Origin: a virus
Taxonomy: Duplodnaviria; Caudoviricetes
DNA: 56,682 nt
IMG/VR virus record: IMGVR_UViG_3300032086_002223
Span: 1-56,682 of that record
Reading direction: 5' to 3' (one strand)
In this document: piece after piece, positions 17,248 to 44,757 of the stretch
Numbering within the stretch: position 1 is the stretch's first letter
How the letters are laid out: every line of letters starts with the position of its first letter
Notes under the pieces: generated by a model
What the model was told of the DNA's origin: nothing
Seen by the model: only the letters and a program-made list of their open reading frames with translations
The model's database searches: none
Position numbers and translations under genes: made by a program

Positions 17248-17255
17248 TATTTAGG
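17248..17255 (-). promoter_or_regulatory. Variant T4 late promoter (CCTAAATA)
   Basis: TAAATA core 5 nt before the ATG of the 88-aa gene. Confidence 0.5.
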
Positions 17256-21622: not shown

Positions 21623-24600
21623 TTAAGACGATATTGGAGATGCAGGCCATGTAGTTGTTCCATCCCATTTCTGAACCGTATTTCTATACGGTTGCTGATA
21701 TGCATATGGTTGTATACCTACTGCAACTTTTTGACGTGTTGTCTGTGCTGGTCTCTGTCTTGAAACTCTCTGCAATACCTGTACTCTAGTTGGTCTCTGT
21801 CTTGAAACTCTTTGTAGTACCTGTGTTCTAGCAGGTCTCTGTCTAGTTACATTTTGAAGAACTTGTACTCTAGCAGGTCTTTGTCTAGTTTCAATGTTAT
21901 TGTACTGATACCCCTGTTGTACTGGTCTTCTTCTTGATTCAATGTTATTGTACTGATAACCTTGCTGTACAGGACGTTGTCTACTCTCAGTATTATTGTA
22001 CTGATAACCTTGTTGCACTGGTCTTTGTCTATTTACAATATTGTTATATTGATAACCTTGTTGCACTGGTCTTTGTCTTGTAACAACATTATTATATTGA
22101 TAAGTTTGCTGAGTAGGTCTTCTTCTTGTTTCTTGAATATTTACCTGTACTCTTGCTGGTCTCTGTCTTGAAACTCTTTGCAGTACCTGAACTCTAGCTG
22201 GTCTTCTTCTAGTTTCAACATTGTTGTATTGATAATTCTGTTGAACAGGTCTTTGTCTTGTATCAACATTATTATATTGGTAACCTTGTTGTACAGGTCT
22301 TTGTCTAGACTCAACGTTGTTATATTGATAACTTTGTTGTACAGGTCTTCTTCTAGGTGAAGGTTGGTTTACCTGAACCCTAGCTGGTCTTTGTCTAGAC
22401 TCAACGTTGTTATATTGATAACTTTGTTGTACAGGTCTTCTTCTAGATTCCTGATTGTTATATTGATAACTTTGTTGTACTGGTCTTCTTCTAGACTCTA
22501 CATTATTGTACTGATAAGACTGTTGTACTGGTCTTCTTCTTGTTTCTTGAATATTTACCTGTACTCTTGCTGGTCTTTGTCTAGACACACGTTGCAACTG
22601 TTGTACTCTTGTTGGTCTACGTCTTGATACACGTTGCAGAACTTGAGTTCTTGCTGGTCTCTGTCTTGACACCCTCTGTAATTGTTGTACTCTAACTGGT
22701 CTACGTCTTGGTACCTGATTATGATACTGGTATGCCTGTTGTACAGGTCTTCTTCTTGGTACCTGATTATGATACGTATAAGTTTGTTGAGTAGAAGTTT
22801 GTACCCTATTATGATAAGTGTATGCCTGTTGTACTGGTCTTCTTCTAGGTACCCTATTATGATACTGATACGATTGTTGTACTGGTCTTCTTCTAGGTAC
22901 CCTATTATGATACTGATACGATTGTTGTACAGGTCTACGTCTAGGTACTCTATTATGGTAGGTATAAGCTTGTTGTACAGGTCTTCTTCTTGGTACCCTA
23001 TTATGGTAGGTATAAGCTTGTTGTACAGGTCTACGTCTTGGTACCTGATTATGGTAGGTATAAGTTTGTTGTGAACTTACCTGTACCCTGTTGTGATACT
23101 GATACGATTGTTGTACTGGTCTTCTTCTAGGTTCCTGATTATTATACTGGTAACTTTGTTGTACTGGTCTACGTCTAGGTACCCTATTATGATAGGTGTA
23201 CGGTTGTTGTGTAGGTCTTCTTCTAGGAACTCTATTATGATAAGTGTAAGGTTGTGGTTGTTGAGCAGGTTGTTGCATCTCATTCATCTGACCTTGTGGC
23301 CAGCTGACACCAGCAGTTGCAGCGAATGTTACTTGGTGAACTATTGACCTATCTCTACTTCTTGTAAATACATCACCTTTGTCTCTGACAAATAGTGGGA
23401 ATCCACCACCACCACCACCGCCAGGTGATTGTGACTGCATCTGACCTTGATGCTTCCAAGCAAATGTTGCAGTTTGACCACTCATAATCTTTGCACCAAA
23501 CTGTGAATAATATGGTGCTTGTCCTGCAAAAGGTATTGAGCCTTGTCTTTGTGGGTTAGGAATGTTTTGAACACTTGTCTGTGCAGAGTTAAAATCTGCA
23601 CCAAATTCAAAGTTTACACCCTCAAATCTTAAGGAACCCTGCCACTGTCTCTGTCCAGCAAACGGACTTCTATAATGATAACTATTAACACTTGTTGTTT
23701 GGTTCTGTGGGCCATTACCTACGTAATATGGTGCTTGTGTTCCTGAGAACTGAGCCTGTGGCCCTCTAAACATCATGTTTCCTCTAAAGGAATCTCTTTC
23801 ATGACCTTTACCATCGGGTCTAGCTGGGAAACTGTACTGACTAGCAGTTGAAATACGAGAATCACTCATGGGGAAACCAAAAAACTCGAAAGAAGGTAAT
23901 AATACAGTCCTTTGTCCATAAGGTGTCTCAACCTTAATACCAGCCATGTCACCACCTCCACCGTAAATATTTGCATAGTGGATGTAAGCAGTGTGTGCGT
24001 TGTTTCTTACTGTTACCTGTCTTGTTCTAGTTGTAGGTTGGTTCAACTGATACGATTGTTGTACTGGTCTTCTTCTAGGTTCCTGATTGTTATACTGGTA
24101 AGACTGTTGGACTGGTCTACGTCTTGGTACCCTATTGTGATAGGTGTACGGTTGTTGGACTGGTCTTCTTCTTGGTACCCTCTGTAATTGTTGTACTCTA
24201 ACTGGTCTTCTTCTAGATTCCTGATTGTTATATTGATAACTTTGTTGTACAGGTCTTCTTCTAGGTTCCTGATTGTTATATTGATAACTTTGTTGTACAG
24301 GTCTTCTTCTAGGTTCCTGATTGTTATATTGATAACTTTGTTGTACAGGTCTTCTTCTAGGTTCAGTGTTATTATATTGATAACTTTGTTGTACTGGTCT
24401 TCTTCTAGGGCCAGTGTCATTATATTGATAACTTTGTTGTACTGGTCTTCTTCTAGGTGAAGGTTGGTTTACCTGAACTCTAGTTGGTCTTTGTCTAGAT
24501 TCAGTGTTATTATATTGATAACTTTGTTGTACTGGTCTTTGTCTAGATTCAGTGTTATTATATTGATAACTTTGTTGTGTACTTGCCTGTACCCTGTTGT

Positions 24601-25744
24601 GATACTGATAAGATTGTTGTACACTAGTTTGTACCCTGTTATGATACTGATAAGCTTGTTGAGTAGAAGCTTGAACTCTATTATGATATTGATAAGTCTG
24701 TTGAGTTGATGCTTGTCCTCTGTTATGATAAGTATATCCTTGTTGTACTGGTCTCTGTCTTGTTACCCTATTATGGTACTGATATGCCTGTTGTACTGGT
24801 CTACGTCTTGGTATCCTATGATGGTAGGTATAAGCTTGTTGTACAGGTCTACGTCTAGGTACTCTATTGTGGTACGTATATGTTTGTTGTGTACTTGTTT
24901 GTATCCTATTATGATAAGTGTATGCCTGTTGTACAGGTCTACGTCTTGGTACTCTATGGTGGTACGTATATGTTTGTTGTACTGGACGTTGTCTACCTAC
25001 CCTGTTATGGTACTGATACGATTGTTGTACAGGTCTACGTCTAGGTACTCTATTGTGATAAGTGTACGTTTGTTGAGTAGAAGTTTGTACCCTATTATGG
25101 TACTGATACGTTTGTTGTGTAGAAGCCTGACCCCTATTATGGTAAGTGTACCCCTGTTGTACTACACGTTGTCTATTAACCCTGTTATGATACTGGTATG
25201 ATTGTTGTACTGGTCTCTGTCTTGGTACCCTATTGTGATAGACATAAGTCTGTTGTACTGGTCTCTGTCTTGGTACCCTATTGTGATAGGTGTATCCTTG
25301 TTGTACTGGTCTCTGTCTTGTTACCCTATTATGGTAACTATAAGTTTGTTGGACTGGTCTACGTCTCTGTACCCTGTTATGGTACGTATAGTTTTGTTGA
25401 GTATTCTGTTGAACACGATTGTGATAAGTGTAATCTTGTTGAACACTCGTTTGAACACGATTGTGATACTGATACGTTTGTTGTGTAGATGCTTGTACTC
25501 TGTTATGATATTGATACGACTGTTGCACAGTGAATTGGTAAGGTTGTTGGAAGTTATAAGGTCTTGTTCCAACTGCTGGTCTAGTAGCAATTACTTGGGC
25601 TGGCATCTGTCCTGATGCCTTTATCCATCCAGTAGGTGTCTTTGTATAGACAGAATCAACTGCCGACCATTCTGTTGGGGATGTCTTTACCCAACTACCT
25701 GTTGTATTTACCCACCCCGTAGGGTTCTTAATTCGTTGTGCCAT
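21623..25744 (-). CDS. Giant mirror-repeat protein (1373 aa), putative hairpin stalk adhesin
   Basis: Two arms of 14/16-aa R/Q/Y/H repeats flanking a non-repetitive domain of about 259 aa; N-terminal W-x-K-T..W motifs; follows a fibre gene. Confidence 0.9.
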   Translation of the reverse strand: MAQRIKNPTGWVNTTGSWVKTSPTEWSAVDSVYTKTPTGWIKASGQMPAQVIATRPAVGTRPYNFQQPYQFTVQQSYQYHNRVQASTQQTYQYHNRVQTSVQQDYTYHNRVQQNTQQNYTYHNRVQRRRPVQQTYSYHNRVTRQRPVQQGYTYHNRVPRQRPVQQTYVYHNRVPRQRPVQQSYQYHNRVNRQRVVQQGYTYHNRGQASTQQTYQYHNRVQTSTQQTYTYHNRVPRRRPVQQSYQYHNRVGRQRPVQQTYTYHHRVPRRRPVQQAYTYHNRIQTSTQQTYTYHNRVPRRRPVQQAYTYHHRIPRRRPVQQAYQYHNRVTRQRPVQQGYTYHNRGQASTQQTYQYHNRVQASTQQAYQYHNRVQTSVQQSYQYHNRVQASTQQSYQYNNTESRQRPVQQSYQYNNTESRQRPTRVQVNQPSPRRRPVQQSYQYNDTGPRRRPVQQSYQYNNTEPRRRPVQQSYQYNNQEPRRRPVQQSYQYNNQEPRRRPVQQSYQYNNQESRRRPVRVQQLQRVPRRRPVQQPYTYHNRVPRRRPVQQSYQYNNQEPRRRPVQQSYQLNQPTTRTRQVTVRNNAHTAYIHYANIYGGGGDMAGIKVETPYGQRTVLLPSFEFFGFPMSDSRISTASQYSFPARPDGKGHERDSFRGNMMFRGPQAQFSGTQAPYYVGNGPQNQTTSVNSYHYRSPFAGQRQWQGSLRFEGVNFEFGADFNSAQTSVQNIPNPQRQGSIPFAGQAPYYSQFGAKIMSGQTATFAWKHQGQMQSQSPGGGGGGGFPLFVRDKGDVFTRSRDRSIVHQVTFAATAGVSWPQGQMNEMQQPAQQPQPYTYHNRVPRRRPTQQPYTYHNRVPRRRPVQQSYQYNNQEPRRRPVQQSYQYHNRVQVSSQQTYTYHNQVPRRRPVQQAYTYHNRVPRRRPVQQAYTYHNRVPRRRPVQQSYQYHNRVPRRRPVQQSYQYHNRVPRRRPVQQAYTYHNRVQTSTQQTYTYHNQVPRRRPVQQAYQYHNQVPRRRPVRVQQLQRVSRQRPARTQVLQRVSRRRPTRVQQLQRVSRQRPARVQVNIQETRRRPVQQSYQYNNVESRRRPVQQSYQYNNQESRRRPVQQSYQYNNVESRQRPARVQVNQPSPRRRPVQQSYQYNNVESRQRPVQQGYQYNNVDTRQRPVQQNYQYNNVETRRRPARVQVLQRVSRQRPARVQVNIQETRRRPTQQTYQYNNVVTRQRPVQQGYQYNNIVNRQRPVQQGYQYNNTESRQRPVQQGYQYNNIESRRRPVQQGYQYNNIETRQRPARVQVLQNVTRQRPARTQVLQRVSRQRPTRVQVLQRVSRQRPAQTTRQKVAVGIQPYAYQQPYRNTVQKWDGTTTWPASPISS
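21746..23254 (-). repeat. C-terminal repeat arm (42/48-nt coding units)
   Basis: 32 full units (20 long, 10 RxRP-only, 2 YxY-only) plus partial end units. Confidence 0.95.
24032..25525 (-). repeat. N-terminal repeat arm (42/48-nt coding units)
   Basis: 32 full units (20 long, 10 YxY-only, 2 RxRP-only) plus a partial first unit. Confidence 0.95.
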
Positions 25745-29723: not shown

Positions 29724-30548
29724 TTATGAATGTCTAATTTGGAACGTGTCTATTGTGGTATTAGTGTTAGCAGGAGTTACGAGTAATCTCATATTTCCTG
29801 AACTAACATCTGCACTCAATGTAAACAAAGAGTTACCTGTATGGACATCACCAAACTGTGAATAATATGCGTTAGTACCATCATTTGCAATGATAACATC
29901 ACAAGAGTGTGTTCCTGCTGAAGCATGTTGTGCTGTCACAAAGAACCTTATACTCTTAATTGATGTTGCGACCTGTTGTAAAACTTGGTCGGCTGTCGTT
30001 GCAGAGAACGATGATTCCGTTCTGTTACCTTCAACTAAGTCACTGGTATTGGAGATATTATTAATTACTAATGTATCTCCATTTACTGCGTTTTCTGTTA
30101 AAGTGATAGTGGATGAGTTAGTAGTTGTATAGTCTGTACCACCCCCAATCAACTTAACACCGTTTAAGTATACGTTTTCACCACCTGATGTATATGATAA
30201 TGAATTACCATTGTCATCATTTCCAGTAAATACTGTTTGGTTTCCTGTTACACTATATGTGAACGTGGAATACACATTACCTGCGTTAGCAAATGATAGT
30301 GTTCCACTCCCATCGGTTTTAAGTACTTGGTTTGCCGAACCATCACTGGTTGGAAAAGAGTAAGCATCATTGATTGTCAAACTTGTTGGGTTTGAACCTA
30401 ATTCGACTACAGCTGCAGAACCGTCATTTTTCTCAGTGTAAAACCTACCGTGATAGGTATTTACTGCCAGTTCCCCTAGTGATAAATCACCAGTGCTAGG
30501 AACAGCATTCTGAGTAGATGAACGTTTAAACTGTATTACTGTTGCCAT
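29724..30548 (-). CDS. Fibre-type structural protein
   Basis: N-terminal IQFKRS..P..L..GELAVN; P..DG..NQVL.TDGSG.LSF; VYLNG module; shared C-terminal domain. Confidence 0.8.
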   Translation of the reverse strand: MATVIQFKRSSTQNAVPSTGDLSLGELAVNTYHGRFYTEKNDGSAAVVELGSNPTSLTINDAYSFPTSDGSANQVLKTDGSGTLSFANAGNVYSTFTYSVTGNQTVFTGNDDNGNSLSYTSGGENVYLNGVKLIGGGTDYTTTNSSTITLTENAVNGDTLVINNISNTSDLVEGNRTESSFSATTADQVLQQVATSIKSIRFFVTAQHASAGTHSCDVIIANDGTNAYYSQFGDVHTGNSLFTLSADVSSGNMRLLVTPANTNTTIDTFQIRHS

Positions 30549-30575: not shown

Positions 30576-32177
30576 TTAAAATGTTCCACCGTCAATTGCA
30601 GTAACGGTTACGGCACCACTTGACACAGTGAAGTTAGCACTAGAGAAAGATGCAACACCCTTATTAGAGGAAGTAGCGTCTTCAACTGCTAGTGTAATTG
30701 CACCAGCACCATTAGTGATTGTCATTGCTTCACCAGCTGTCAATGTAGCTGCATCAAATACTCCACCTGAAGTGTCACCAATTAAGATTTGACCATCGGT
30801 TGGAGCTGAACCAGCATATGAATCGATTGAACCACTCAATGATAGAGCTGCACCTTCGACATTACCGAATGCAACGTTACCTAATGTACCTGAGAATACT
30901 GAACTTGTGTCTGTTGCGTCTGCAATAAACTTAAATTTAGCATCTGTATCGTCCATACCAAAGAAACCAACTTTAGCACCACTTGAGTTGTACTTAAATT
31001 TGATACCTCTGTCTAGGTTGTCGTCTGCAGAATCATCACCGATTTCAAATACTGGGTCGGCAACTGATACTGTTGATGAGTTTACAGTTGTTGTTGTACC
31101 ATTAACTGACAAGTTACCTGTTACTGTAAGGTTACCTGAAGTTGTTAATGTTGCAGTTGTGATGTCGTCTGAAATTAAGTTACCACCAACTGTTAAGTTG
31201 TTTCCGACAGTTACGTTATTAGGTAGACCAACTGTAATAGTTTGTCCACTTGCTGAAGTTTCAATTTCATTTGCAGTACCTTGTACTGTAAGTGATTGTG
31301 AATCTAAATCGACTGCACCTGTTCCACTGTCACCTGCTACGTCTAAGTCTTGTGCTGTTACGTTAGTATCAACATAATCTTTAACTGCTGCTGAAGTAGG
31401 AATAGTTGTGTCGTTGTCGTTTGAACCGATACCTTCTGATTCGATTACAACCGCTGCAGCTGCTAATTTACCAAATGTTATTTGTCCATTTGCAATGTGA
31501 GCTGTGTCGATTGAACCATCTACTAGATGTTCTGAATCAATAGAATCGTCTGCGATTTTAGCACCGTTAACTGCGTCTGCAGCTATCATGCCATTTTCAA
31601 CTACACCTGAACCGATTGTCATTGCACCATTAGATGCAAGTGTTACGTCACCTGAAACTGCTACGTTATCAAATGAGTCTGAACCGTCATGGACAAGAAT
31701 GTGTCCTGATGCTGGTGCTGAAATATCTGTATCAGATGCACCTGCGATTGATGAAGTTGTTGATACGAAAGACAATGCTCCTGAACCATCGGTTCCAAGT
31801 ACTTGTCCGTTTGAACCATCTGAAGATGGTAATGTTAATGTAAGGTTTGAAGCTACTGAATCGGGTGCTTTCAATGCAACGAAATTTGTTCCGTTGTCTG
31901 AATCTTCTCTCAACTTGATAGATGCACCTGCTGTTGCACCGTTACCAACTATGAAGTCTGAAGGTGTTGGGGTTGAACCCACCAACATATCCGTGTAGTA
32001 CTTACCACCAATTTCGTGGACGACTGCTTGGGTACCATCATGTGACTCAATGAAGAGAGTAGCATTTGCACCAGACCCTGCTCTATCCTGAACGTAGGCT
32101 AATTCACTTTCTGCTAAATCAGAAATTGCGGGATTAGCACTTCCAGTAGACCTTTTAATCTGAATTACTGTTGCCAT
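30576..32177 (-). CDS. Tail fibre protein (533 aa)
   Basis: N-terminal IQIKRS..ELAY, G/S/T/D-rich beta repeats, DRGI.F, C-terminal IDGGTF. Confidence 0.85.
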   Translation of the reverse strand: MATVIQIKRSTGSANPAISDLAESELAYVQDRAGSGANATLFIESHDGTQAVVHEIGGKYYTDMLVGSTPTPSDFIVGNGATAGASIKLREDSDNGTNFVALKAPDSVASNLTLTLPSSDGSNGQVLGTDGSGALSFVSTTSSIAGASDTDISAPASGHILVHDGSDSFDNVAVSGDVTLASNGAMTIGSGVVENGMIAADAVNGAKIADDSIDSEHLVDGSIDTAHIANGQITFGKLAAAAVVIESEGIGSNDNDTTIPTSAAVKDYVDTNVTAQDLDVAGDSGTGAVDLDSQSLTVQGTANEIETSASGQTITVGLPNNVTVGNNLTVGGNLISDDITTATLTTSGNLTVTGNLSVNGTTTTVNSSTVSVADPVFEIGDDSADDNLDRGIKFKYNSSGAKVGFFGMDDTDAKFKFIADATDTSSVFSGTLGNVAFGNVEGAALSLSGSIDSYAGSAPTDGQILIGDTSGGVFDAATLTAGEAMTITNGAGAITLAVEDATSSNKGVASFSSANFTVSSGAVTVTAIDGGTF

Positions 32178-32324: not shown

Positions 32325-32576
32325 CTAGAATGTTCCACCATCAATAATTGTGGTAGTTTCCCATTTGTCTGTTGAGGCATTATATGAAAGTATACCTTGG
32401 TCTACTTCAGTTGCACTTACATCTGCAATATCACTAATTGAATTGATGTTACCTGTTCCTCCAGTCGTGGAGTCTCCGATTGCAACTTGTTTTGCCTTAA
32501 TGCCTGTTGATTGTAGTAGTCTTGATTTTAATGTCACGTTACTTGCGTTCCCTGATATCTTTGCTTTTATAGCCAT
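32325..32576 (-). CDS. Small fibre-type protein
   Basis: 83 aa; I.DI.DV..G.L.YN...KW repeat, C-terminal IDGGTF. Confidence 0.8.
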   Translation of the reverse strand: MAIKAKISGNASNVTLKSRLLQSTGIKAKQVAIGDSTTGGTGNINSISDIADVSATEVDQGILSYNASTDKWETTTIIDGGTF

Positions 32577-32590
32577 TTAATGAACCCTTC

Positions 32591-32923
32591 CTATCTTGTT
32601 ACGCCGGGTGTTATTATTGCTTGTCCCTCGATAACTCGGGTCTTTACACCTGAACTATCTGTTATTATTAAATCATATACATACCTACCAGCTTTTAGAC
32701 CTGTGGTTTGTGTATCTGTTAAAGTAAGTGTTACCTTACCAGTTGATGGAGTTATAGATGTACTAAACGTTTCTGCAATGGTTGTGGAACCATATGTTTT
32801 TCTTATTTGTGCAGCTGCAGAATATCCATTCAAGTCTATGATATTATCACTAGTATCAGTGACATCGATAGTAACTTCGTAATCGGTGCCTTGGTCTATA
32901 AATATGTTTGCTATGATTGCCAT
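32591..32923 (-). CDS. Ig-like virion adaptor protein
   Basis: IDQG.D, DL.GY.A.AQIRK, L.L...QT..L.AGRYVYD, RVIEG...TPGVTR. Confidence 0.8.
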   Translation of the reverse strand: MAIIANIFIDQGTDYEVTIDVTDTSDNIIDLNGYSAAAQIRKTYGSTTIAETFSTSITPSTGKVTLTLTDTQTTGLKAGRYVYDLIITDSSGVKTRVIEGQAIITPGVTR

Positions 32924-32941: not shown

Positions 32942-35179
32942 TTAAGTGTTCGGGTCTGTCAATTGTGAAGTTGGTACACTTTGGTGAGTCTTTTTCAATG
33001 TACCACTGTCATTTATATAGACTTCATCCATTTTTCTTAATGTACCAGCATCGTTAATCCATATCTGTTTGATTTTTGCAAGAGGCCCGATTGTTCTTGT
33101 TGATGGGAACGGTTGTCGTACTGGTCTACGTCTTGGTATCTGATTATGATAGTTATAAGTCTGTTGCACAGGTCTACGTCTAGGTACCCTATTGTGATAC
33201 GAATAAGTTTGTTGTAAATTTTTCTGTCTTGATACTCTATTGTGATATGTGTAATCTTGTTGCACACTTCTTTGTCTATCTACTCTATTGTGGTATTGAT
33301 ACGACTGTTGCACACTACGTTGTCTTGATGACCTTTGTAATACCTGAACCCTAGCTGGTTTTTGTCTAGTTTCTTGTGCATTTATTGGTACTCTAACAGG
33401 TCTTCTCTTTGACTCACTATTGTTATACTGGTATGTTTGTTGTACTGGTCTTTGTTTAGTTATAACCTGATTCACCTGAACTCTTGTTGGTCTTTGTCTT
33501 GTTACGGCTTCATTTACTTGAACTCTAGCAGGTCTTTGTCTTGACACACGTTGTAATACCTGAACCCTAGCTGGTTTTTGTCTTGATACTACTTCATTAA
33601 CCTGTACTCTTACTGGTCTTCTTCTATCTTCATCTACGTTTCTCTGAGTTCTTACAGGTCTACGTCTTGGTACCTGATTATGATACGAATAAGTTTGTTG
33701 AGTAGTCACCTGTTTTTCATTTAGAGTTCCACTTGGGAATGCCGGTGTTGGTGTTGATGATGCAGCCAAAGTAACACCTGAGACAAATGTCTCTTGTCTT
33801 GCATATCCTCTAGGTCTTATCCTTACAAAATAACCATCATTATCTCTCAATCGAAGAGGCACCTGGCCACCTGGCGTTGGTGCCGCTTGAACCTGTGATG
33901 TAAAGTCTCCTACATTTTCCCATGCAAGTTTAATTTGTTGACCACTATTAAGTTTAATAGCATACTGAGAAGCATTTGGATGTTGTGAAAGAAACTCAAC
34001 TCCCTGAGTACCTTGTCCTTGAGGGTGTCCTTGTCTTTGTGGATTAGGTACACTTTGGTTTTGAGGTGCTGGTGAAGCTGGACTAAAGTCAGCTGCAAAG
34101 ATTGTATTTTCTCCAACATACCTTAATCTAGAATTCCATTGTCTTTGTACTTGACCGCTGGGGAATTGAACACCTGAGTAATTCCAAGTATTAGCAACAG
34201 CAGGTGCTACAGTATTTTGCATCCCAGTTCCAGTATAGTAAGGAGCTGCTGTTTGTGTGAATGAAGCAGTTGGCCCCCTGAAGAACATTGCACCCCTGAA
34301 CGAATCACCTTCATGAAAATTTCCTGACCTTGTACCTGTTGGTGTAGGAAAAGGATATTGTTGAGGTATACCATTTATTTGTTGTTGCATTGGAAAACCC
34401 ATAAACTCGAAAGAAGGTATGGTGCCTGTTACTTGACCATATGGTGTCTCCATCTTAATAGCCGCAGCATCACCCCCACCACCATATACACGCATATAAT
34501 GAATGTAATTTGAGTGTGCTTGTGACTGAACGGGTCTCTGTCTATTCTCAGTATTGTTATACTGGTACGACTGTTGAGTATTCTCTTGTGTTCTATTATG
34601 ATACACATACACCTGTTGAGTATTCTGTTGAACACGATTGTGATAAGTGTAATCTTGTTGAGTAGATGTCTGTACTCTGTTATGATACTGGTATGTTTGT
34701 TGAGTATTCTGTTGAACACGATTATGATAAGTGTAATCTTGTTGAACACTCGTTGGAACACGATTGTGATACTGATAATCTTGTTGTACAGGTCTCTGTC
34801 TAGCTACTCTATTATGATAAGTGTATGTTTGTTGAGTATTTTGTTGTACTCTATTATGGTAAGTATATGGTTGTTGAGTATTTTGTTGTACCCTGTTATG
34901 ATACTGATATGATTGTCTAGCAGGTCTCTGTCTTGTTACAACATTATTGTACTGATAGGTTTGTCTAGTAGGTCTCTGTCTTGTTACAGCATTATTGTAC
35001 TGATAGGTTTGTCTAGTAGGTCTCTGTCTAGATTCTACGTTGTTATACTGATAACTTTGTTGAACAGGTCTTTGTTTGTTTTCTTGATTGTTGTACTGAT
35101 ATGACTGTTGAACAGGTCTTCTATCATTGAAGGGTTGTTGAAAACTAGTCCCTGTATTGATATATGTTTCATTTGACAT
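32942..35179 (-). CDS. Second mirror-repeat protein (745 aa), paralogue of 21623-25744
   Basis: Same repeat alphabet in two arms; homologous central domain; C-terminal IWIND.G...VYIND.G motif. Confidence 0.9.
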   Translation of the reverse strand: MSNETYINTGTSFQQPFNDRRPVQQSYQYNNQENKQRPVQQSYQYNNVESRQRPTRQTYQYNNAVTRQRPTRQTYQYNNVVTRQRPARQSYQYHNRVQQNTQQPYTYHNRVQQNTQQTYTYHNRVARQRPVQQDYQYHNRVPTSVQQDYTYHNRVQQNTQQTYQYHNRVQTSTQQDYTYHNRVQQNTQQVYVYHNRTQENTQQSYQYNNTENRQRPVQSQAHSNYIHYMRVYGGGGDAAAIKMETPYGQVTGTIPSFEFMGFPMQQQINGIPQQYPFPTPTGTRSGNFHEGDSFRGAMFFRGPTASFTQTAAPYYTGTGMQNTVAPAVANTWNYSGVQFPSGQVQRQWNSRLRYVGENTIFAADFSPASPAPQNQSVPNPQRQGHPQGQGTQGVEFLSQHPNASQYAIKLNSGQQIKLAWENVGDFTSQVQAAPTPGGQVPLRLRDNDGYFVRIRPRGYARQETFVSGVTLAASSTPTPAFPSGTLNEKQVTTQQTYSYHNQVPRRRPVRTQRNVDEDRRRPVRVQVNEVVSRQKPARVQVLQRVSRQRPARVQVNEAVTRQRPTRVQVNQVITKQRPVQQTYQYNNSESKRRPVRVPINAQETRQKPARVQVLQRSSRQRSVQQSYQYHNRVDRQRSVQQDYTYHNRVSRQKNLQQTYSYHNRVPRRRPVQQTYNYHNQIPRRRPVRQPFPSTRTIGPLAKIKQIWINDAGTLRKMDEVYINDSGTLKKTHQSVPTSQLTDPNT
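33107..33712 (-). repeat. C-terminal repeat arm of the 745-aa protein
   Basis: 5 RxRP-only, 1 long, 2 RxRP-only, 4 long units plus end units. Confidence 0.9.
34529..35128 (-). repeat. N-terminal repeat arm of the 745-aa protein
   Basis: 5 long, 2 YxY-only, 1 long, 5 YxY-only units plus a partial unit. Confidence 0.9.
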
Positions 35180-37929: not shown

Positions 37930-38125
37930 TTGTTAAATTCCTCAGAATATTCTTTATTTCTTTCATCTCTTCTCTTAGAGTATTTATTTCATTTATTTGT
38001 TTTTGAAACACTGTTTTTCTCTTCTTATAGATTGCAAGTGTCTCACTATCATTGTTGATGATAGCACCTGATTCCTCATCTCTATAGAGATGTTGTTCTC
38101 CTTGTACTCTTGCCAATTCTTTCAT
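37913..38125 (-). CDS. Small coiled-coil hypothetical protein
   Basis: 70 aa; V.G...L.RD..SGAIIN then coiled coil; overlaps both neighbours. Confidence 0.8.
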   Translation of the reverse strand: MKELARVQGEQHLYRDEESGAIINNDSETLAIYKKRKTVFQKQINEINTLREEMKEIKNILRNLTNGQNS

Positions 38126-41100
38126 TATGTTGCTAACGCTATTGCTCTAAGGTTAGATACTAATGGAACTACAGAAGTATTATGTGATTGTCCTACAATC
38201 TTAATTGCAAAAGAAGAAAACTCGGGTAAGTCTTCTACACTATATTCATATTCTTTAAAGTTCTTACCGTCTTTTTCTACAGTTGTATTTGGTGAACCAT
38301 TAGTGTTAAAGAAGTTATAACCTACATCATCAAAAGGTGTAGATTCATCATTCAATAGAATCTTGTACATAACTTTTATGTCTGTACTTAATGGACTAAA
38401 TCCATCTAAGATAACCCTAATAGAAGATGCTGGTTGTTTCAAGTTAACTCTCTTAGTTACATATGTCATTGCATTCAATTCACCCTCTGCATTTTGCGTT
38501 GGGATGATTGTTTGTGCATTAAGTGAATCCAAACCATTAATTCTGTTTGCATTACAAATAACACCCATTGAAGATATATCAACTACTGGTGATACGTTTT
38601 CATTCAAAGTAATAAATGATATTTGTGTTTTAAATGACCTTGCACCTGACAATGATGCCTGACTTGTTTCATTTATTCTTGATGCAACAATACTTGGTGC
38701 GTCTAAGAATACATTATCATTCAATGTAACATACTGAGAAGAATTTCTCATTGTGTAAGGTGTTCCCTTCACAAAACCTTCGGGTGATTTCATTGAACAC
38801 AATTGTAAGTTACAAGTTAATCTTGTATCTCTCAATGTTAATGATGGAATCATTGTATGAATTGAATCAAAGTAATAGTTTCTTGTAGCTACAACTGCTG
38901 TTCCACCACCGATAGATGACTCTACAGTTGCTGTTGCTGTGTCAAAATCAGTTGTAGTCCAATCGATTGGAAGTTCATAACTATCAAGTTTTGGACTTGC
39001 AATTGCACTATGTGTTTTGTTTAATAATGATACAGGTACACCACCAAGTGTATCATCAACTGCATCAATATTAACTTGAATACTGTTAGTTGAACTACCT
39101 AAGTTTGTAATTGTTAATGTATCTGAAATAGAATAATTACTACCACAGTTCTGTATCTTAATATCTGATATTGCACCACTAGATACTGTGACAAAAAGTG
39201 TTACACCTGTACCACTTCCACTCGATGTAGTTTGAACGTCTTGATATGCACCATCTGCTGGTAGTGAACCTGATAATAGTGTTGCACTTCCTTCCCCGAT
39301 GTTTGTTACACCGTTTTCTCTATCACCCTGTATACCTGAAATGGTTACATTTGATGATACATCATACATTCCGTGTGTATAATGATACACTTTTACAGTA
39401 CTTTGACCTTGTGTTGTTTGAATCGGATTAACTTGTAATGTATCTGTTGCTAAATCACCGTTCTCAAATATAATGTTTGAAGTTTTTGATGTATCAAACT
39501 TTGCAGTTTTCATATGGAACTTAAGGTCTTGTGTTTGTTCTGCAGTCCATGTTGATGCATTTTGTGATTTAAACAATGAACCTGCGTACGGTTGTCCTGA
39601 TATCAATTGACCAGTTTTAATGTCTGCTTCACCCATTGTTGAAATGAATGTTTCATATTTGTTAGAGTTTGATAATACTACAAAACAGTATTCCTGTCCT
39701 TCTTCAACATACACTGGTGAGTTGAATGTAAATGTTGTTGCAGTTGAACCATCCTCAGAAATGTTTATCTCTGAAGGATTCTTAGTTACTTCTGAATATG
39801 GAAGAACTATCTGGCCAGGGTAACCATTTACCATGTTTCTAATTTCAACTGTTACAGGTAAACTTTCATCTTTAGTATTGAAGAATAAATCGATTGATGT
39901 TATAAACATACCACCACGACTCTCTACTAAGAAAGATTCTGCTAATGGGTCTTGCCATCCTCTAAACTCCCACACATCGGGTATCGCTCTTATTTCATTT
40001 GGAATGATTGGTTCATTTGGGTCAGGCGTCACTATAGGTGGTGGTGGAGGTAATGGGTCTGTATTGTCGGGTGGTAGTGGTGGGTCTACTGGTGGTACCA
40101 CTGGTGGTTCTGGCAATGGAGGTGCTGTCAAATCGACTGCAGTTCTGTTAAAGAACTCACCTGACCTTTCAATACTTCTACCTGATGTTAGATTTTCTCT
40201 AATAACTCTACCGTTCTTTGTAGATATAATTTCTGTTTGTGATGATTGCAATAATCCCTGTGCCTGATATACATTACTTGCATATGAAGGTGGGTTAGAA
40301 AGATTACTTTCACTTGCAGTTATCTTAACTTCTCTTTGTCCTGTTGGGAATCTTTGTGCATCGTTGTTTGGTATATCGAAATATGCACGAAGTCTTCCGT
40401 TTCTGTTTGATTTAACTGTGGTTCCTTTTGCAGTTGCACCACCGTCTCCGAATGCTGAACTGAAAGGTGTAATGTGTGCATTGACATTAATACCATCAAA
40501 GAACACATAGTGTTTTCTATTTGGTTGTAAGTTTTGTGCATCAAGTTCTATTCTTCTAGAACGGATGAAAGGAACAATACTTATACTTACAATTCTGTCT
40601 CTTCTGTCTTCTACGAAATCTTCAACTACTGTAGTCTTAACACCATTTCTAGTTTGTGTCTCGGGTGTTTCTGTAATAACTCTTGTAACCTCTTCGCCAG
40701 GCACCCATTCACCACCTTGTGCTGGGTCTCCTGACCATGCACCTGGCCTTGATGAAACAACTTCTTCATTAACTGCATTAGGTTCACCTACCCAAGTTGT
40801 TTGCCATGCATTCCATACAGTTCCTAGAGAGTTTGCATTCTCAGCTAATACTGCATCAAAGTTACCTTCTCTATTGATTCTAACTTCGGGTAATCTTTCA
40901 GAGTCATTCCATACATCTGAATTTGGTGATAGTGTAAGATTACCAATGAATGCAAAAACGTTGTATGGGTTAACATTAATTGTTCTAGATGCTTTGTCTT
41001 GGTTTACATATGTCTTTTCAGTAAATGGTAATGTAAGTAAGTTACCAGTCTTTGCATAACTTGAACTACTGTTGGTATTTAAAGCTAAATCAAAGAATGA

Positions 41101-44100
41101 AGTGTAAACCTGAGGTCTTAGTGTACCCAGTTTAGTATCAACTGCAACACCATAATCGGGATGTGAAACATCACCGATACCATGACCTTTAAATGAATCA
41201 ACAACAAATCCTGATTTATATCTATCGAATCCATCTGCATCTTGGATTTGCATATTCTGTGTATCTCTTTCTAATAGAGATAGTGTTGTAAGTCTTTCTA
41301 AGTTTGCAACTCTATTTTGTATCCTACCGATATCCTTCATGGTATATCGTCTATGGTCGATACTCTTAATTTTTATTTTCTTTACATTTGCAGTGAAAGG
41401 TGGAATAAACAATTCAAACATTTCGATTGCATCGTCCATTACCTTTGGTTTAGTTGGTGATAAAGCTGGTACTCCACTGTTTACTTGGAAGTTACCTGCT
41501 TTGTGTAAGAATACTTTATCAATTCTAGGTACATAGAAAGTAATGTCACCTTGAATTGAACTATTTGTTACTGGTACATCTAATGCAGATGCAGTAAACT
41601 CTGTACTCTCATATTTAAATGGAGCTGCAGTAATACCTGTACTATTATTACTGATATCTACAAGACTTGCACTTGTTGGGTCGATGTCTTGTGTTGAGAA
41701 ACTTGATAGACCGATTAACTGGTCTGCAACTGGTCTAAAATCAACTGCATCCGATAATTCAAATTGTCCATCGGGTTCTAATCCACCCAAGTCTACTTTG
41801 TTTGGTACGTACTTTGGAATGTCTTGATATGAAATTTGGTTATCATAAGATGATACATCAAAGAAGTTACCAGCACTATGTGTAAAGTAATCAAACACAA
41901 TTAGTATTGCATTGTTTGGTGCTGGTTCACCTGGCTTTAACTGTATTTTTGCATAGTCATAGAAACCATCTCTCTGACCATCGTCAAAGAAGTATCTGTT
42001 CTTAATGTCTTTACTACCTGCTGATACATTTGATAATGTTCCTGTTGCAGTAGATGTTTCTCCTACTACAGATTCTGATGCACTGAATCTTTTACTTGAC
42101 AAGTAATAGAAGTATGATGTATTATCATCACCTGCGTAGTTAATGATTTTTGCTCTTGCACCTGATGTCTGTCCTTTAATGACTTCTTTATCTACAAAAG
42201 GTATTCCAGCATTTAATTGGTCGATAGTTGCACTAGGTGGTAAAGGATTACTTCCTGCCTCTGCCTCATATATTCCTCTGATTTTAAATACGTCTGCAAG
42301 ACCTAATGATATTTCTTTGTCATCGTATCCAGTTCCATAAAAACCATTATTTGAAGATTTGGTACCGACTTTTAACATCTTACCTTCTCTTAGTGTTTTA
42401 TTTCTTTGTACTGGAGAACCGATGTTTACTGTATATGATATCTTTATAATTGCACCATTGTTTGCAGTGTTGAGATTACCAAATGATAATGTGGTACTAT
42501 CTCCTGACAAACTGGTGAAGAAATCTCTTGGGTCTAATACGTCACCGTTTAGAAGTGTAGGTGAACCTGATGCCTGTTCAATAACTGCCATCTCAACAAA
42601 TGAGTTTACATTCGATGCAGTGATAGCTGGGAATGTATTTCCTGAACCTGACGATATAGTGAATGCTTGACTAGCTACCTCTACTGTTGTCTGTCTTCTT
42701 ACCTGACAACTATCGGGTGTAAATGATTTTACAAAATCTCTACTGAATGCAAAGATATTTGCAGTTTGGTTTTGGTCGTATAGTTTAACTCTTCTTCTTG
42801 ATACATTACCCTGATAACTATCACCAGCACCTATATTACTTGTAAGTGTTAATGATGTTGCAGTTCCAACTGCTGATACAGTGTATTCGTCACCATCAAT
42901 TGGGTTGACAATGATGTCTCCCTCTTTAAGTTCTTCTTGGAATCTTGTTCCAAAACCTACTACTGATGCACTACCAGCTGTAAGTGATACTGTTCCTGAT
43001 AAAACTTTTTCTGCATCAACTATTACATCACCAGTAAACTTTTCTCTACTTGCATTACTAGGTGTTTGTGATACACCTCTTATTCTATCAATGTTGTAAT
43101 TTCTAACAGATGAAATACCATTGGTGTATGTTGTTGAAGTAGTACCTGTACTCTTAATACTGTTACCTACTACGAATGAACCCTGAACATCGTGAACCAA
43201 AATAAAGTCATTTGTATAGTCAACATCTGCAACAATACCGTGAGCTCCTGTTACTTGGTCATCTACTCTATCACCTACATTAATTGGAGTTACGTTTTGT
43301 AAATTAGTGATTCCAATTTTGGTAAACATCTTAATGTCGAACAAATATAATGCATGTCTAGATAATGGGTCTAGTACACCATCAGAGTTTGTATCAACAC
43401 TTTCTAATTCATCAAAGTTTCTTACTCTTGCAAAACCGATTTGACCACTTGATGGTTCAGTGCCTGGCGTAGCAATAGTACTATCATATAATTTGATTAA
43501 CTGGTTTGGTTTTAATGTGTCTTCTCCACCCTCATTACCAAACTCGGGTACTGAGTGAACACTTCCTAATTTAATATAATTACCAAGTCTTGCAGAAGTC
43601 GATGTTCCTGACAATGATGCAACGGTTCTTGCTTTAGGTATTGATATAGGTGTTGTACCTATCTTATCAATTTCATGTCCTCTGACATATGCCTTGCCTG
43701 GCGAAACTTGTAATACGAACTTACCAATATCTCCACCCTGTGAAGTAGTGTAGTATCCTTGATTATCGTTTTGTTGTAAGTGTTCTCTAACAGCTGGTAT
43801 AAACTGTCTAACAGTAAAGTCACCTGATTGGTCGTATGTTCTTCTTGCAAGTGCATTTTCAAAATTACTGTAGTTTGCAGAAGATACTTTTAGTTCTGTT
43901 GTACCATTTACCACTCTGTACAATTCAATGAAGTTAGTGTCATCGGTTGCAGTAACTAACTTTTTGACGAATGTTGTTTGGATTTTAAATCTATCTGCGC
44001 CAGGTGCGTTTTCGTTTGTTGTTCCCTGTGCATTGTCTAATAGTGAACTGTCATCTGCAGAAGATATCAATTGTTCTGAGATATCTAAACCAATTCTATA

Positions 44101-44757
44101 TGATGGTTGTCCTGAATACTTTTCTAAAATTAATTGTGCAGCGTCAACCTTTACAAAGAAACCTCTTAGGTATACTACACCTTCTGTGATACTTGCAATA
44201 GATGAACGACCAACTGGAAGTTTATCAGTTGTCTGAACTTTAAATTGATTGTTATTACTTGCAGAAGTTGGGTTACCATTTTCATCGATACTTACTTCTT
44301 CTAGTTCTTCATCTGCATCAAAGTAAAATGAGTTAGATGAATCTGTTCCACCTGCTAAATATTTTACAATAAGAGTTGTTGGGTCATCAGATGTTTCTGC
44401 AGCTGTTAGATATACTCTTGCAACTGCACCTGAAGTTTTACCCTGAATGTATTTGTCTTTAAATGATGCTAGATATGTGGAAACTGAACTGTCCCCACTA
44501 CTATTTGGATTGACATTATTAACCTTTACATAACCGTAATCATATACTACGTCTGTTTGAGCTCCATCTACAAGAGACCCTTCCTCAAACACATGTCCAG
44601 CAAATCTTTCGACTTGATTCTGTAATATGGATTGAGACTGAGTTAATTCTCTTGCTTGTAATGGTCTCCCAGCACGAAATAGTACTTTATGAAACTTCTT
44701 GTCTTCAGAAAAATCATCGTGATACGGGGTTACATTAAGGTCTGTCTTTTCTGTCAT
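38125..44757 (-). CDS. Very large virion structural protein (DUF4815-like)
   Basis: 2210 aa; LNVTPYHDDF, VLFR.G..LQARELTQ.QSILQNQ, APGADR, LARRT.D.SG.F, RYTMKDIG, R.KSGFVVD.F, DPLA.SF. Confidence 0.88.
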   Translation of the reverse strand: MTEKTDLNVTPYHDDFSEDKKFHKVLFRAGRPLQARELTQSQSILQNQVERFAGHVFEEGSLVDGAQTDVVYDYGYVKVNNVNPNSSGDSSVSTYLASFKDKYIQGKTSGAVARVYLTAAETSDDPTTLIVKYLAGGTDSSNSFYFDADEELEEVSIDENGNPTSASNNNQFKVQTTDKLPVGRSSIASITEGVVYLRGFFVKVDAAQLILEKYSGQPSYRIGLDISEQLISSADDSSLLDNAQGTTNENAPGADRFKIQTTFVKKLVTATDDTNFIELYRVVNGTTELKVSSANYSNFENALARRTYDQSGDFTVRQFIPAVREHLQQNDNQGYYTTSQGGDIGKFVLQVSPGKAYVRGHEIDKIGTTPISIPKARTVASLSGTSTSARLGNYIKLGSVHSVPEFGNEGGEDTLKPNQLIKLYDSTIATPGTEPSSGQIGFARVRNFDELESVDTNSDGVLDPLSRHALYLFDIKMFTKIGITNLQNVTPINVGDRVDDQVTGAHGIVADVDYTNDFILVHDVQGSFVVGNSIKSTGTTSTTYTNGISSVRNYNIDRIRGVSQTPSNASREKFTGDVIVDAEKVLSGTVSLTAGSASVVGFGTRFQEELKEGDIIVNPIDGDEYTVSAVGTATSLTLTSNIGAGDSYQGNVSRRRVKLYDQNQTANIFAFSRDFVKSFTPDSCQVRRQTTVEVASQAFTISSGSGNTFPAITASNVNSFVEMAVIEQASGSPTLLNGDVLDPRDFFTSLSGDSTTLSFGNLNTANNGAIIKISYTVNIGSPVQRNKTLREGKMLKVGTKSSNNGFYGTGYDDKEISLGLADVFKIRGIYEAEAGSNPLPPSATIDQLNAGIPFVDKEVIKGQTSGARAKIINYAGDDNTSYFYYLSSKRFSASESVVGETSTATGTLSNVSAGSKDIKNRYFFDDGQRDGFYDYAKIQLKPGEPAPNNAILIVFDYFTHSAGNFFDVSSYDNQISYQDIPKYVPNKVDLGGLEPDGQFELSDAVDFRPVADQLIGLSSFSTQDIDPTSASLVDISNNSTGITAAPFKYESTEFTASALDVPVTNSSIQGDITFYVPRIDKVFLHKAGNFQVNSGVPALSPTKPKVMDDAIEMFELFIPPFTANVKKIKIKSIDHRRYTMKDIGRIQNRVANLERLTTLSLLERDTQNMQIQDADGFDRYKSGFVVDSFKGHGIGDVSHPDYGVAVDTKLGTLRPQVYTSFFDLALNTNSSSSYAKTGNLLTLPFTEKTYVNQDKASRTINVNPYNVFAFIGNLTLSPNSDVWNDSERLPEVRINREGNFDAVLAENANSLGTVWNAWQTTWVGEPNAVNEEVVSSRPGAWSGDPAQGGEWVPGEEVTRVITETPETQTRNGVKTTVVEDFVEDRRDRIVSISIVPFIRSRRIELDAQNLQPNRKHYVFFDGINVNAHITPFSSAFGDGGATAKGTTVKSNRNGRLRAYFDIPNNDAQRFPTGQREVKITASESNLSNPPSYASNVYQAQGLLQSSQTEIISTKNGRVIRENLTSGRSIERSGEFFNRTAVDLTAPPLPEPPVVPPVDPPLPPDNTDPLPPPPPIVTPDPNEPIIPNEIRAIPDVWEFRGWQDPLAESFLVESRGGMFITSIDLFFNTKDESLPVTVEIRNMVNGYPGQIVLPYSEVTKNPSEINISEDGSTATTFTFNSPVYVEEGQEYCFVVLSNSNKYETFISTMGEADIKTGQLISGQPYAGSLFKSQNASTWTAEQTQDLKFHMKTAKFDTSKTSNIIFENGDLATDTLQVNPIQTTQGQSTVKVYHYTHGMYDVSSNVTISGIQGDRENGVTNIGEGSATLLSGSLPADGAYQDVQTTSSGSGTGVTLFVTVSSGAISDIKIQNCGSNYSISDTLTITNLGSSTNSIQVNIDAVDDTLGGVPVSLLNKTHSAIASPKLDSYELPIDWTTTDFDTATATVESSIGGGTAVVATRNYYFDSIHTMIPSLTLRDTRLTCNLQLCSMKSPEGFVKGTPYTMRNSSQYVTLNDNVFLDAPSIVASRINETSQASLSGARSFKTQISFITLNENVSPVVDISSMGVICNANRINGLDSLNAQTIIPTQNAEGELNAMTYVTKRVNLKQPASSIRVILDGFSPLSTDIKVMYKILLNDESTPFDDVGYNFFNTNGSPNTTVEKDGKNFKEYEYSVEDLPEFSSFAIKIVGQSHNTSVVPLVSNLRAIALAT

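What the first reader, a model, noticed from the sequence alone, without database searches (positions are those of the whole stretch)
32942..35179. Shorter paralogue independently obeys the mirror code with a different barcode
Seen: N-arm L5 S2 L1 S5; C-arm read backward (partial L) L4 R2 L1 R5. The end pieces also match in kind (FQQPFNDRRPV versus RRRPVRQPF; NRQRPV versus QQTYSY). Arms are about 200 aa against about 490 aa in the larger protein, and the unit order differs, so symmetry was kept through separate expansions. Inference: the phage displays related heads on stalks of two lengths, and different barcodes could prevent cross-pairing between paralogues.
Basis: partly seen in the sequence, partly recalled or inferred. 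Interest (0 to 1): 0.85.

Follow-up and report, generated by a model that had tools for sequence, protein, structure and literature searches.

The report
Fold-back phage fibre with mirrored arms
A marine phage fibre protein has two repeat arms that match unit for unit when one is read backwards, which suggests they zip together into a stalk that holds a variable head at its tip.

Summary
The ORF 32942-35179 (-) encodes 745 aa: a 23-aa cap, a 194-aa N-arm, a 276-aa head, a 194-aa C-arm and a 58-aa tail. Each arm has 13 units of 16 or 14 aa.

The units fall into four types (h, n, s, r). Read forward, the N-arm is complementary to the C-arm read backward (h:n, s:r) at 13 of 13 positions. The 1373-aa paralogue gives 33 of 33. 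Relatives with other unit orders also obey the rule, with compensating changes in both arms.

A test that needs no unit parsing agrees. One ungapped antiparallel register puts 292 of 297 arm tyrosines opposite Arg or Lys.

My best reading is a fold-back stalk closed by a Tyr:Arg zipper, with both termini at the base and the variable head at the tip. The genes lie in the host-recognition cluster of a T4-like marine myophage.

No structure supports this: both AlphaFold2 runs failed. In 4 of 10 full-length relatives one arm lacks whole units, and both arms are strongly basic.

The family has no Pfam or PDB relative. The fold-back principle is known from the T4 gp37 tip, AgI/II adhesins and SMC; the four-type code found here was not in the papers I searched.

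The parts
32942..35179 (-). Whole gene of the shorter paralogue (745 aa plus stop)
35111..35179 (-). N-terminal cap, aa 1-23. It is identical in 5 of 5 small orthologues and continues the aromatic:Arg register (F17:R695, R21:F691).
34529..35110 (-). N-arm, aa 24-217: 13 units (n4 s2 h1 s5 n1), 194 aa, net charge +16
33701..34528 (-). Head, aa 218-493: the most variable part (50-93% identity among small orthologues). No Pfam, PDB or ESM Atlas relative.
33119..33700 (-). C-arm, aa 494-687: 13 units (h1 r5 n1 r2 h4), 194 aa, net charge +35
32945..33118 (-). C-terminal tail, aa 688-745: 88-100% identical among small orthologues; aa 15-47 of it match phrog_13729 (unknown function). Proposed virion-attachment piece (inference).
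21623..25744 (-). Larger paralogue, 1373 aa: N-arm aa 74-577 (nt 24014-25525), head aa 578-829 (nt 23258-24013), C-arm aa 830-1333 (nt 21746-23257). Each arm has 33 units and 504 aa.
32591..32923 (-). 110-aa gene directly downstream. It matches phrog_1084 (1.5e-28) and phrog_3304 'L-shaped tail fiber protein assembly' (3e-22), and weakly Pfam LtfC (below cut-off). The same position is kept in a related contig. Possible adaptor or assembly partner (inference).

Best explanation
The protein is a fold-back fibre of a T4-like marine myophage.

The chain runs out along the N-arm, forms the globular head, and returns along the C-arm. The two arms lie antiparallel and in register over all 194 residues (504 in the paralogue). 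Both termini therefore sit at the virion-proximal base, and the variable head, presumably the receptor binder, sits at the distal tip.

The register is held by a zipper. Every Tyr-x-Tyr of one arm faces an Arg-x-Arg of the other: unit positions 4 and 6 against 14 and 12.

Where one arm has a 14-aa unit that lacks the Arg tail (s), the other has a 14-aa unit that lacks the Tyr-x-Tyr start (r). The two 2-residue deletions then lie opposite each other. Long units come in two centre types, His-Asn-Arg-Val (h) and Asn-Asn-x-Glu (n), and these always face each other.

All unit lengths are even, and the facing pairs are of the i, i+2 kind. This points to an extended beta ribbon, perhaps bundled as a trimer as in other phage fibres. 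The irregular order of 14- and 16-aa units acts as a register lock.

What is shown: the complementarity, the equal arm lengths, the compensating changes and the genomic context. What is inferred: physical contact of the arms, beta structure, oligomer state, receptor binding by the head, and attachment through the conserved termini.
For: (1) Unit-type complementarity in the antiparallel sense. It is 13/13 in the small protein, 33/33 in the large one, 13/13 in L009, and 32/33 in L010 and in L012; in those two the odd pair is an aberrant 16-aa unit facing a degenerate n unit. None of 20000 shuffles reached the observed value in any of these. Parallel registers give 3-8 matches.

(2) Arm lengths are equal to the residue: 194/194, 504/504, 196/196, 508/508 and 508/508.

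(3) Compensating changes.
- Window small against L009: N-arm unit 8 changes s to h, and its partner, C-arm unit 6, changes r to n. Both 2-residue gaps are visible in the alignment.
- Window large against L010: 7 N-arm units differ, and exactly their 7 partner units differ in the complementary way.
- The N-arm of P0015, with a quite different unit order, is matched 13/13 by the C-arm of its relative P0006, which is a fragment.

(4) A divergent member, P0016 (arms 42-47% identical, head 26%), starts with r5 and ends with s5. It carries a 30-aa composite unit at mirrored places in both arms and is complementary at all 12 recognised positions.

(5) A test that needs no unit parsing. One ungapped antiparallel register puts 292 of 297 arm Tyr opposite Arg or Lys in four proteins. 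The next best register gives 49% and the best parallel register 38%. P0016 gives 32 of 37 at the same offset, against a best parallel value of 14 of 36. The same register continues into the caps.

(6) The types are complementary, not identical, at mirrored places. That argues for direct heterotypic contact rather than two arms lying on a symmetric third partner.

(7) The gene has no DNA inverted repeat. The repeats have 42- and 48-nt periods and only 67-83% matches.

(8) Context. Both paralogues lie between a 2210-aa giant gene and the neck genes, among fibre genes. The pelagimyophage paper PMC7029224 calls the region between the VrlC gene and neck gene gp14 the host recognition cluster (passages read).

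(9) The termini are the most conserved parts (88-100%) and the head the least (50-93%). This is the usual pattern for a fibre with a conserved attachment end and a variable receptor end. The larger terminal piece is C-terminal in the small protein (58 aa against a 23-aa N-cap) and N-terminal in the large one (73 aa against 40 aa). That is easy to understand if both termini meet at the base.
Against: No structural evidence exists. AlphaFold2 on the full protein gave mean pLDDT 27, and on the head alone 35.

In 4 of 10 full-length relatives one arm lacks whole units: P0012 has 11 against 13, P0013 12 against 13, P0015 13 against 11, and P0004 13 against 8. The units that remain are all complementary (edit distance equals the difference in unit number). 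These may be collapsed repeats in short-read assemblies: Logan unitigs break inside the arms. I could not show that, so arm equality may not be obligatory.

Both arms are strongly basic (+16 and +35 in the small protein, +76 and +92 in the large one). Pairing them brings like charges together unless Arg:Tyr stacking, salt or a polyanion offsets this.

The unit profiles were trained on the window's own two proteins, so the parse is partly circular for those two. The Tyr:Arg test does not depend on the parse.

The related proteins come from few lineages. The compensating changes near the head could have been imported together in one recombination event.
Confidence: 0.75

Rival explanations
1. 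The same antiparallel N-arm:C-arm pairing occurs, but between chains. The N-arm of one subunit zips to the C-arm of another, giving a domain-swapped dimer or trimer. The heads cluster together and one or several stalks radiate from them.
For: The complementarity data do not say whether the two paired arms belong to one chain. Phage fibres are usually oligomers (general knowledge).
Against: A single hairpin is the simpler topology. The barcodes of the two paralogues do not match each other (best 7 of 13); that would matter more for pairing in trans, but it does not decide the question. Nothing here tests oligomer state.
Confidence: 0.15
2. The arms do not touch each other. Both lie on a third, elongated partner, either a polyanion such as nucleic acid or an acidic polysaccharide, or another virion protein. 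Equal unit lengths at mirrored places keep them in step along it.
For: The arms carry a very high positive charge.
Against: A symmetric partner predicts identical unit types at mirrored places. What is seen is complementary types and Tyr opposite Arg at 98% of positions. The genes lie among tail-fibre genes, not among DNA-handling genes.
Confidence: 0.05
3. The fibre is an ordinary parallel homotrimeric shaft built from about 15-aa repeats, like a triple beta-spiral. The N- and C-arms are two separate shaft segments on either side of a mid-fibre knob. The mirror pattern is a by-product of repeat history or of chance.
For: Repeats of 14-16 aa containing Pro recall the shaft repeats of adenovirus and reovirus fibres (recalled, not tested).
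Against: The complementarity cannot be chance: none of 20000 shuffles reached it in any of five proteins. It is also maintained through compensating changes. No DNA palindrome could generate it. Parallel registers score no better than background.
Confidence: 0.03
4. The arms are disordered low-complexity sequence, or the pattern is an assembly artefact.
For: The arms are rich in Gln, Asn, Tyr and Arg. AlphaFold2 gives no confident structure. Unitigs break in the arms.
Against: Misassembly or disorder would erase a 33-unit mirror rather than create one. The gene's sampled words recur in 20 runs from 7 studies. The pattern is found in separate contigs with different unit orders.
Confidence: 0.02

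Closest known systems
[quoted passage not shown]
   Same: It is a phage fibre whose chain doubles back at a small distal head, so that outgoing and returning strands together build the needle (passage read in PMC12609058; iron sites in PMC6957217). Like our genes, it lies in a tail-fibre module of a T4-like phage.
   Different: Only the last part of gp37 folds back, whereas here almost the whole protein does. The gp37 needle is held by His-x-His iron sites; our arms contain no His-x-His at all (0 in four arms) and have Tyr-x-Tyr facing Arg-x-Arg instead. There is no sequence similarity to any PDB chain at E <= 1. gp37 has no four-type unit code.
Streptococcal antigen I/II adhesins (SpaP, BspA): A-region and P-region stalk carrying the V head
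   Same: Repeat regions on either side of a variable head wind together into a long stalk that projects the head away from the anchor, with tyrosines of one arm locking into the other arm (passages read in review PMC7732690).
   Different: That stalk is an alpha helix wound with a polyproline-II helix, on a bacterial cell-wall protein. Our arms are neither Ala-rich nor Pro-rich. There is no homology.
SMC and Rad50 arms (intramolecular antiparallel coiled coil)
   Same: N- and C-terminal arm halves fold back on each other. The termini meet at one end and a separate domain sits at the other. For SMC I saw only the search listing and abstract of PMC5526789; the antiparallel detail, and everything about Rad50, is recalled.
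   Different: That is an alpha-helical coiled coil with heptads. Our units are 14 or 16 aa, with Pro in most units, and are rich in Gln, Tyr, Val and Thr. The function is unrelated.
Triple beta-spiral shafts of adenovirus fibre and reovirus sigma1
   Same: A viral fibre shaft built from repeats of about 15 aa (recalled).
   Different: Those are parallel trimers with the head at the C-terminus, and they need no N/C mirror. No sequence match was found in Pfam or PDB.

Membership tests
T4 gp37-type receptor-binding tip | The chain doubles back at a distal head, so segments before and after the head run antiparallel | tested here: met
   Met at sequence level only: mirror complementarity 13/13 and 33/33, and Tyr opposite Arg or Lys at 292 of 297 positions. 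No structure.
T4 gp37-type receptor-binding tip | Repeated His-x-His motifs that bind iron along the needle | tested here: not met
   0 His-x-His in the four arms of the two window proteins
T4 gp37-type receptor-binding tip | Sequence similarity to the solved tip or to a curated family | tested here: not met
   No PDB chain at E <= 1. No Pfam family for the 745-aa protein at E <= 0.01.
T4 gp37-type receptor-binding tip | Homotrimer forming a six-stranded needle | not testable with these tools
   A trimer of the full chain exceeds the size limit of the complex tool. The two-chain job gave no verdict.
Antigen I/II adhesins | Ala-rich helical repeats on one side of the head and Pro-rich repeats on the other | tested here: not met
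   The arms are dominated by Gln, Arg, Tyr, Val and Asn. Ala is 3-12 residues per arm and Pro 4-9%.
SMC/Rad50-type antiparallel coiled coil | Heptad-based alpha-helical arms | tested here: not met
   Unit periods are 14 and 16 aa, with Pro recurring along the arms. No helix appears in either model, but both models are of low confidence.
Phage tail fibre (general) | Encoded in the tail-fibre or host-recognition module, with conserved attachment end and variable distal domain | tested here: met
   The neighbours are fibre and baseplate genes. Termini are 88-100% identical and the head 50-93%. Presence in the virion was not tested.
Pfam YHYH domain (named among pelagimyophage structural proteins in PMC7029224) | Match to the curated profile | tested here: not met
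   No Pfam hit for the 745-aa protein at E <= 0.01, although h and s units contain Tyr-x-Tyr-His

The most novel reading that the evidence does not exclude
A protein counterpart of base pairing. Four repeat-unit types pair only as h:n and s:r through a Tyr:Arg cross-strand zipper, and their irregular order works as an address that sets the register of fold-back beta fibres up to about 150 nm long. Evolution changes fibre length and address only through compensating changes in both arms, as in RNA stems. If this holds, stalk length and pairing specificity could be read from sequence and perhaps designed.
Probability: 0.45. Interest if true: 0.9.

Novelty: new variant of a known kind. Interest (0 to 1): 0.85.

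Why it matters
If the arms do pair as the sequence implies, this is a new way to build a long, rigid fibre from one chain. It also has a rule simple enough to read by eye: even-length units, Tyr-x-Tyr facing Arg-x-Arg, and a length barcode that locks the register.

It would explain how two paralogues in one phage can present related heads at about 2.6-fold different reach. It would also give a rare case of covariation between distant protein segments that is visible at the level of whole repeat units.

On the practical side, it marks the head (aa 218-493) as the likely receptor binder in an uncultured group of marine myophages whose host is not known. It also offers a candidate scaffold for designed fibres of set length.

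Tried and rejected
Structure prediction led nowhere.
- AlphaFold2 on the full 745-aa protein with a 9-row alignment gave mean pLDDT 27.3 and pTM 0.19.
- The head alone, with 14 rows, gave pLDDT 35.1.
- I ran no fold search, because models this poor give meaningless matches.
- The complex job (N-arm aa 24-217 against C-arm aa 494-687) returned 'no answer'. The score was 0.00 in both runs and the controls were not folded. I count it neither for nor against.

Database searches for relatives of known function found nothing.
- ESM Atlas: no usable hit for the head.
- PDB sequence searches with the head profile and with the whole protein: 0 hits at E <= 1.
- tblastn of the protein against 50,697 phage records: no match.
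- Genome-contig scan: 231 pattern matches, none a relative.
- The first viral-contig scan with the single head sequence: none.
- The search for homologous proteins with the large protein's head: none within 755-2403 aa.
- The metagenome scan returned only contigs that appear to be the same as those already held, plus one fragment. I judged this from matching identities and one equal contig length; I did not compare the sequences.

Two long proteins (P0009, P0010) match only head residues 28-58, many times over. Their own Pfam hits are scattered and mostly zero-stretch. I treat them as compositional matches.

Reads. The gene's sampled words occur in 20 of the 24 listed runs, from 7 studies of seawater, marine or biofilm metagenomes. 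Contigs of 4 runs cover all 30 bins. The listed exact pieces cover most of the gene, but they break into short pieces inside both arms. The listed joints involve repeats or the paralogue. This can neither confirm nor refute the number of units.

Mutual information among 56 h:n pairs is highest for h11:n3 (0.85) and h3:n11 (0.83). None of 5000 shuffles reached these values, and same-position pairs score lower (0.45 and 0.39). The reciprocity suits an antiparallel arrangement. The values are not corrected for shared ancestry of neighbouring units, and those positions are not directly opposite in the Tyr:Arg register, so I give this little weight.

I rejected a DNA palindrome as the source of the mirror: 0 inverted repeats in the gene.

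I searched the literature by words only and found no description of this family. I did not search by sequence motif, so I cannot claim that it is not in print. Supplementary files of PMC7029224, which may list fibre genes of related phages, could not be seen.
Full report
What is there. The finding's coordinates are one ORF, 32942..35179 on the minus strand, 745 aa. All large ORFs of the 56.7-kb window are on that strand. The window is a virus record judged 31% complete.

The window encodes the following recognisable phage genes:
- a T4-type portal, sheath and large terminase;
- baseplate wedge proteins;
- neck proteins;
- a 2210-aa giant protein.

The closest cultured phages by portal protein are Methylophilales phage Melnitz (57.5% identity) and Pelagibacter phage Mosig (55.4%). 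This is therefore an uncultured marine T4-like myophage of unknown host.

The gene lies two genes downstream of the giant gene. The larger paralogue, 21623..25744 (1373 aa), lies further down, before the neck genes. A paper on pelagimyophages calls the region between the VrlC gene and neck gene gp14 the 'host recognition cluster' and places the tail fibres there (PMC7029224, passages read). I did not verify that the 2210-aa gene is VrlC. It matches phrog_358, of unknown function.

Anatomy. The protein has five parts:
- a 23-aa cap;
- an N-arm, aa 24-217;
- a head, aa 218-493;
- a C-arm, aa 494-687;
- a 58-aa tail.

Both arms are tandem units of 16 or 14 aa. I distinguish four types.
- h (16 aa): Tyr-x-Tyr at positions 4-6, His-Asn-Arg-Val at positions 7-10, and an Arg-rich tail ending in Pro-Val.
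- n (16 aa): the same start, Asn-Asn-x-Glu at positions 7-10, and an Arg-x-Arg-Pro tail.
- s (14 aa): like h up to position 10, then a 4-residue polar tail without Arg.
- r (14 aa): a 4-residue Arg-Val-Gln-Val-like start in place of the 6-residue Tyr-x-Tyr start, then like n.

The N-arm reads n4 s2 h1 s5 n1. The C-arm reads h1 r5 n1 r2 h4.

The mirror. Read backward, the C-arm is the exact type-complement (h:n, s:r) of the N-arm at 13 of 13 positions, and both arms have exactly 194 aa. The large paralogue has 33 units and 504 aa in each arm and is complementary at 33 of 33, including places where r sits in the N-arm and s in the C-arm. None of 20000 shuffles of the unit order reached the observed values (maxima 11 and 21). 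Parallel registers give 7 and 3.

The mirror exists only at protein level. The gene has no inverted DNA repeat. The DNA repeats have periods of 42 and 48 nt and only 67-83% matches.

Relatives. The family is rare.
- 8 hits at E <= 0.001 among 1.84 billion representatives. Two of them are compositional matches.
- 6 and 7 clusters in the 5.8-billion-protein set.
- Four IMG/VR contigs.
- None in 50,697 phage records and none in prokaryote genomes.
- No Pfam family for the 745-aa protein.

This gives ten distinct full-length proteins. Six have arms of equal length:

| Protein | Arm lengths (aa) | Complementary units |
|---|---|---|
| Window small | 194 / 194 | 13 of 13 |
| Window large | 504 / 504 | 33 of 33 |
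| L009 | 196 / 196 | 13 of 13 |
| L010 | 508 / 508 | 32 of 33 |
| L012 | 508 / 508 | 32 of 33 |
| P0016 | 206 / 192 | 12 of 12 recognised |

For P0016 the C-arm reaches 206 aa if a degenerate 14-mer next to the head is counted.

The unit orders differ between these proteins, and the differences are compensated.
- L009 differs from the window's small protein at N-arm unit 8 (s to h) and at its partner, C-arm unit 6 (r to n). Both 2-residue gaps can be seen in the alignment.
- L010 differs from the window's large protein at 7 N-arm units and at exactly their 7 partners.
- P0016 is much more distant (head 26% identical, arms 42-47%; hhalign of its head against the head profile gave E 0.2). It starts with r5, ends with s5, and carries a 30-aa composite unit at mirrored places in both arms.

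Exceptions. In four proteins one arm lacks whole units: P0012 (11 against 13), P0013 (12 against 13), P0015 (13 against 11) and P0004 (13 against 8). All remaining units are complementary, because the edit distance equals the difference in unit number. The full 13-unit C-arm of fragment P0006, a relative of P0015, matches the N-arm of P0015 at 13 of 13.

These sequences come from metagenome assemblies, one of them a Logan assembly. Logan unitigs of this very gene break inside the arms. Repeat collapse is therefore plausible but not shown. I report these four proteins as real evidence against strict equality of the arms.

A test that needs no unit parsing. I aligned the whole N-arm, without gaps, against the reversed C-arm in four proteins. 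One register places 292 of 297 tyrosines opposite Arg or Lys. That register is residues n and c with n + c = 712 in the small protein and 1408 in the large one. The next best registers give 49% and the best parallel register 38%. P0016 gives 32 of 37 at the same offset, against a best parallel value of 14 of 36.

In unit terms, Tyr4 faces Arg14 and Tyr6 faces Arg12. This is an i, i+2 pattern on both strands, as expected for cross-strand neighbours on one face of an antiparallel beta ladder (inference).

The same register runs on into the caps. The pairs are F17:R695 and R21:F691 in the small protein, and R55:Y1353, R61:Y1347, Y69:K1339 and F71:R1337 in the large one.

The 2-residue deletions that turn h into s (in the tail) and n into r (in the start) lie opposite each other in this arrangement, whichever arm carries which. 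All unit lengths are even, so the in/out alternation of a beta strand is never broken.

Interpretation. The simplest account is a fold-back stalk. The N-arm runs out, the head sits at the tip, and the C-arm runs back. The arms are zipped by Tyr:Arg pairs, and the irregular 14/16 barcode fixes the register. A slip of one unit lowers the match to 8 of 12 in the small protein and 20 of 32 in the large one.

Three further points fit this reading.
- The termini are the most conserved parts (N-cap 100% in 5 of 5 small orthologues, C-tail 88-100%) and the head the least (50-93%). This is the usual pattern for a conserved virion-attachment end and a variable receptor-binding end.
- The larger terminal piece is C-terminal in the small protein and N-terminal in the large one. 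That is natural if both termini meet at the base.
- In the large protein, the piece before the N-arm (aa 42-73) and the piece after the C-arm (aa 1326-1357) are 50% identical direct repeats.

At about 2.8-3.3 Å per residue (my estimate for an extended or gently coiled ribbon, not measured), the stalks would be about 55-65 nm and 140-170 nm long, a ratio of 2.6.

Oligomer state, beta structure, receptor binding and virion location are all inferred. Against the model stands the strong positive charge of both arms (+51 and +168 per chain), which needs Tyr:Arg stacking, salt or a counter-ion to be tolerable. There is also no confident predicted structure.

Comparison with known systems. The nearest working analogue in phages is the tip of T4 gp37. 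[quoted passage not shown] Our arms have no His-x-His and no sequence similarity to any solved chain. The protein therefore works like that tip but is not a member of the family.

Streptococcal antigen I/II adhesins build a stalk of more than 50 nm from repeat regions on either side of a variable head (PMC7732690, passages read). That stalk is an alpha helix wound with a polyproline-II helix.

SMC arms are antiparallel coiled coils. For these I saw only the listing and abstract of PMC5526789; the remaining detail is recalled.

As far as I know, and this is partly recall, none of these has a four-type complementary unit code. My word searches turned up no description of this family. I did not search by motif.

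Verdict. I rate this a new variant of a known architectural principle, carried by a protein family with no known relatives, and of high interest because the rule can be read from sequence and tested directly.

Noticed in passing
window 32591-32923 (-); also L018 5260-5592: A 110-aa gene lies directly after the small paralogue. It matches phrog_1084 and phrog_3304 ('L-shaped tail fiber protein assembly') and, weakly, Pfam LtfC. An ORF of the same length holds the same position in a related contig; I did not compare its sequence. It may be an adaptor or chaperone for the fold-back fibre.
   Followed up: partly
window 29724-30548 (-), 30576-32177 (-), 32325-32576 (-): The 274-aa and 533-aa fibre-like proteins share nearly the same first ten residues. 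The 83-aa and 533-aa proteins share the same last six residues. This looks like a set of modular fibre pieces with common joining ends.
   Followed up: no
window 21623-25744 (-), aa 42-73 and aa 1326-1357: In the large paralogue, the pieces just outside the two arms are 50% identical direct repeats (E 1e-6). The base of the stalk therefore has similar caps on both chain ends.
   Followed up: partly
window 38125-44757 (-): A 2210-aa protein matches phrog_358 (unknown function) over about 1400 residues. It sits where pelagimyophage papers place VrlC, and it has a Pro-rich linker around aa 1500. I did not verify that it is VrlC.
   Followed up: no
window 17251-18003 (-) and 18863-19552 (-): A 2OG-Fe(II) oxygenase-like gene and an endonuclease V-like gene sit between the fibre genes and the neck genes, inside the presumed host-recognition cluster.
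   Followed up: no
P0016 (807 aa): This distant member has the same caps and arm rule, but its head is 26% identical and only marginally alignable (hhalign E 0.2). The arms and termini seem to be a conserved chassis onto which different heads are mounted.
   Followed up: partly
L023 / L026 (IMG/VR contig of 9279 nt, match at its first 400 bases): A further, truncated family member lies at a contig end. Only part of a C-arm is present, so the mirror rule could not be tested on it.
   Followed up: no
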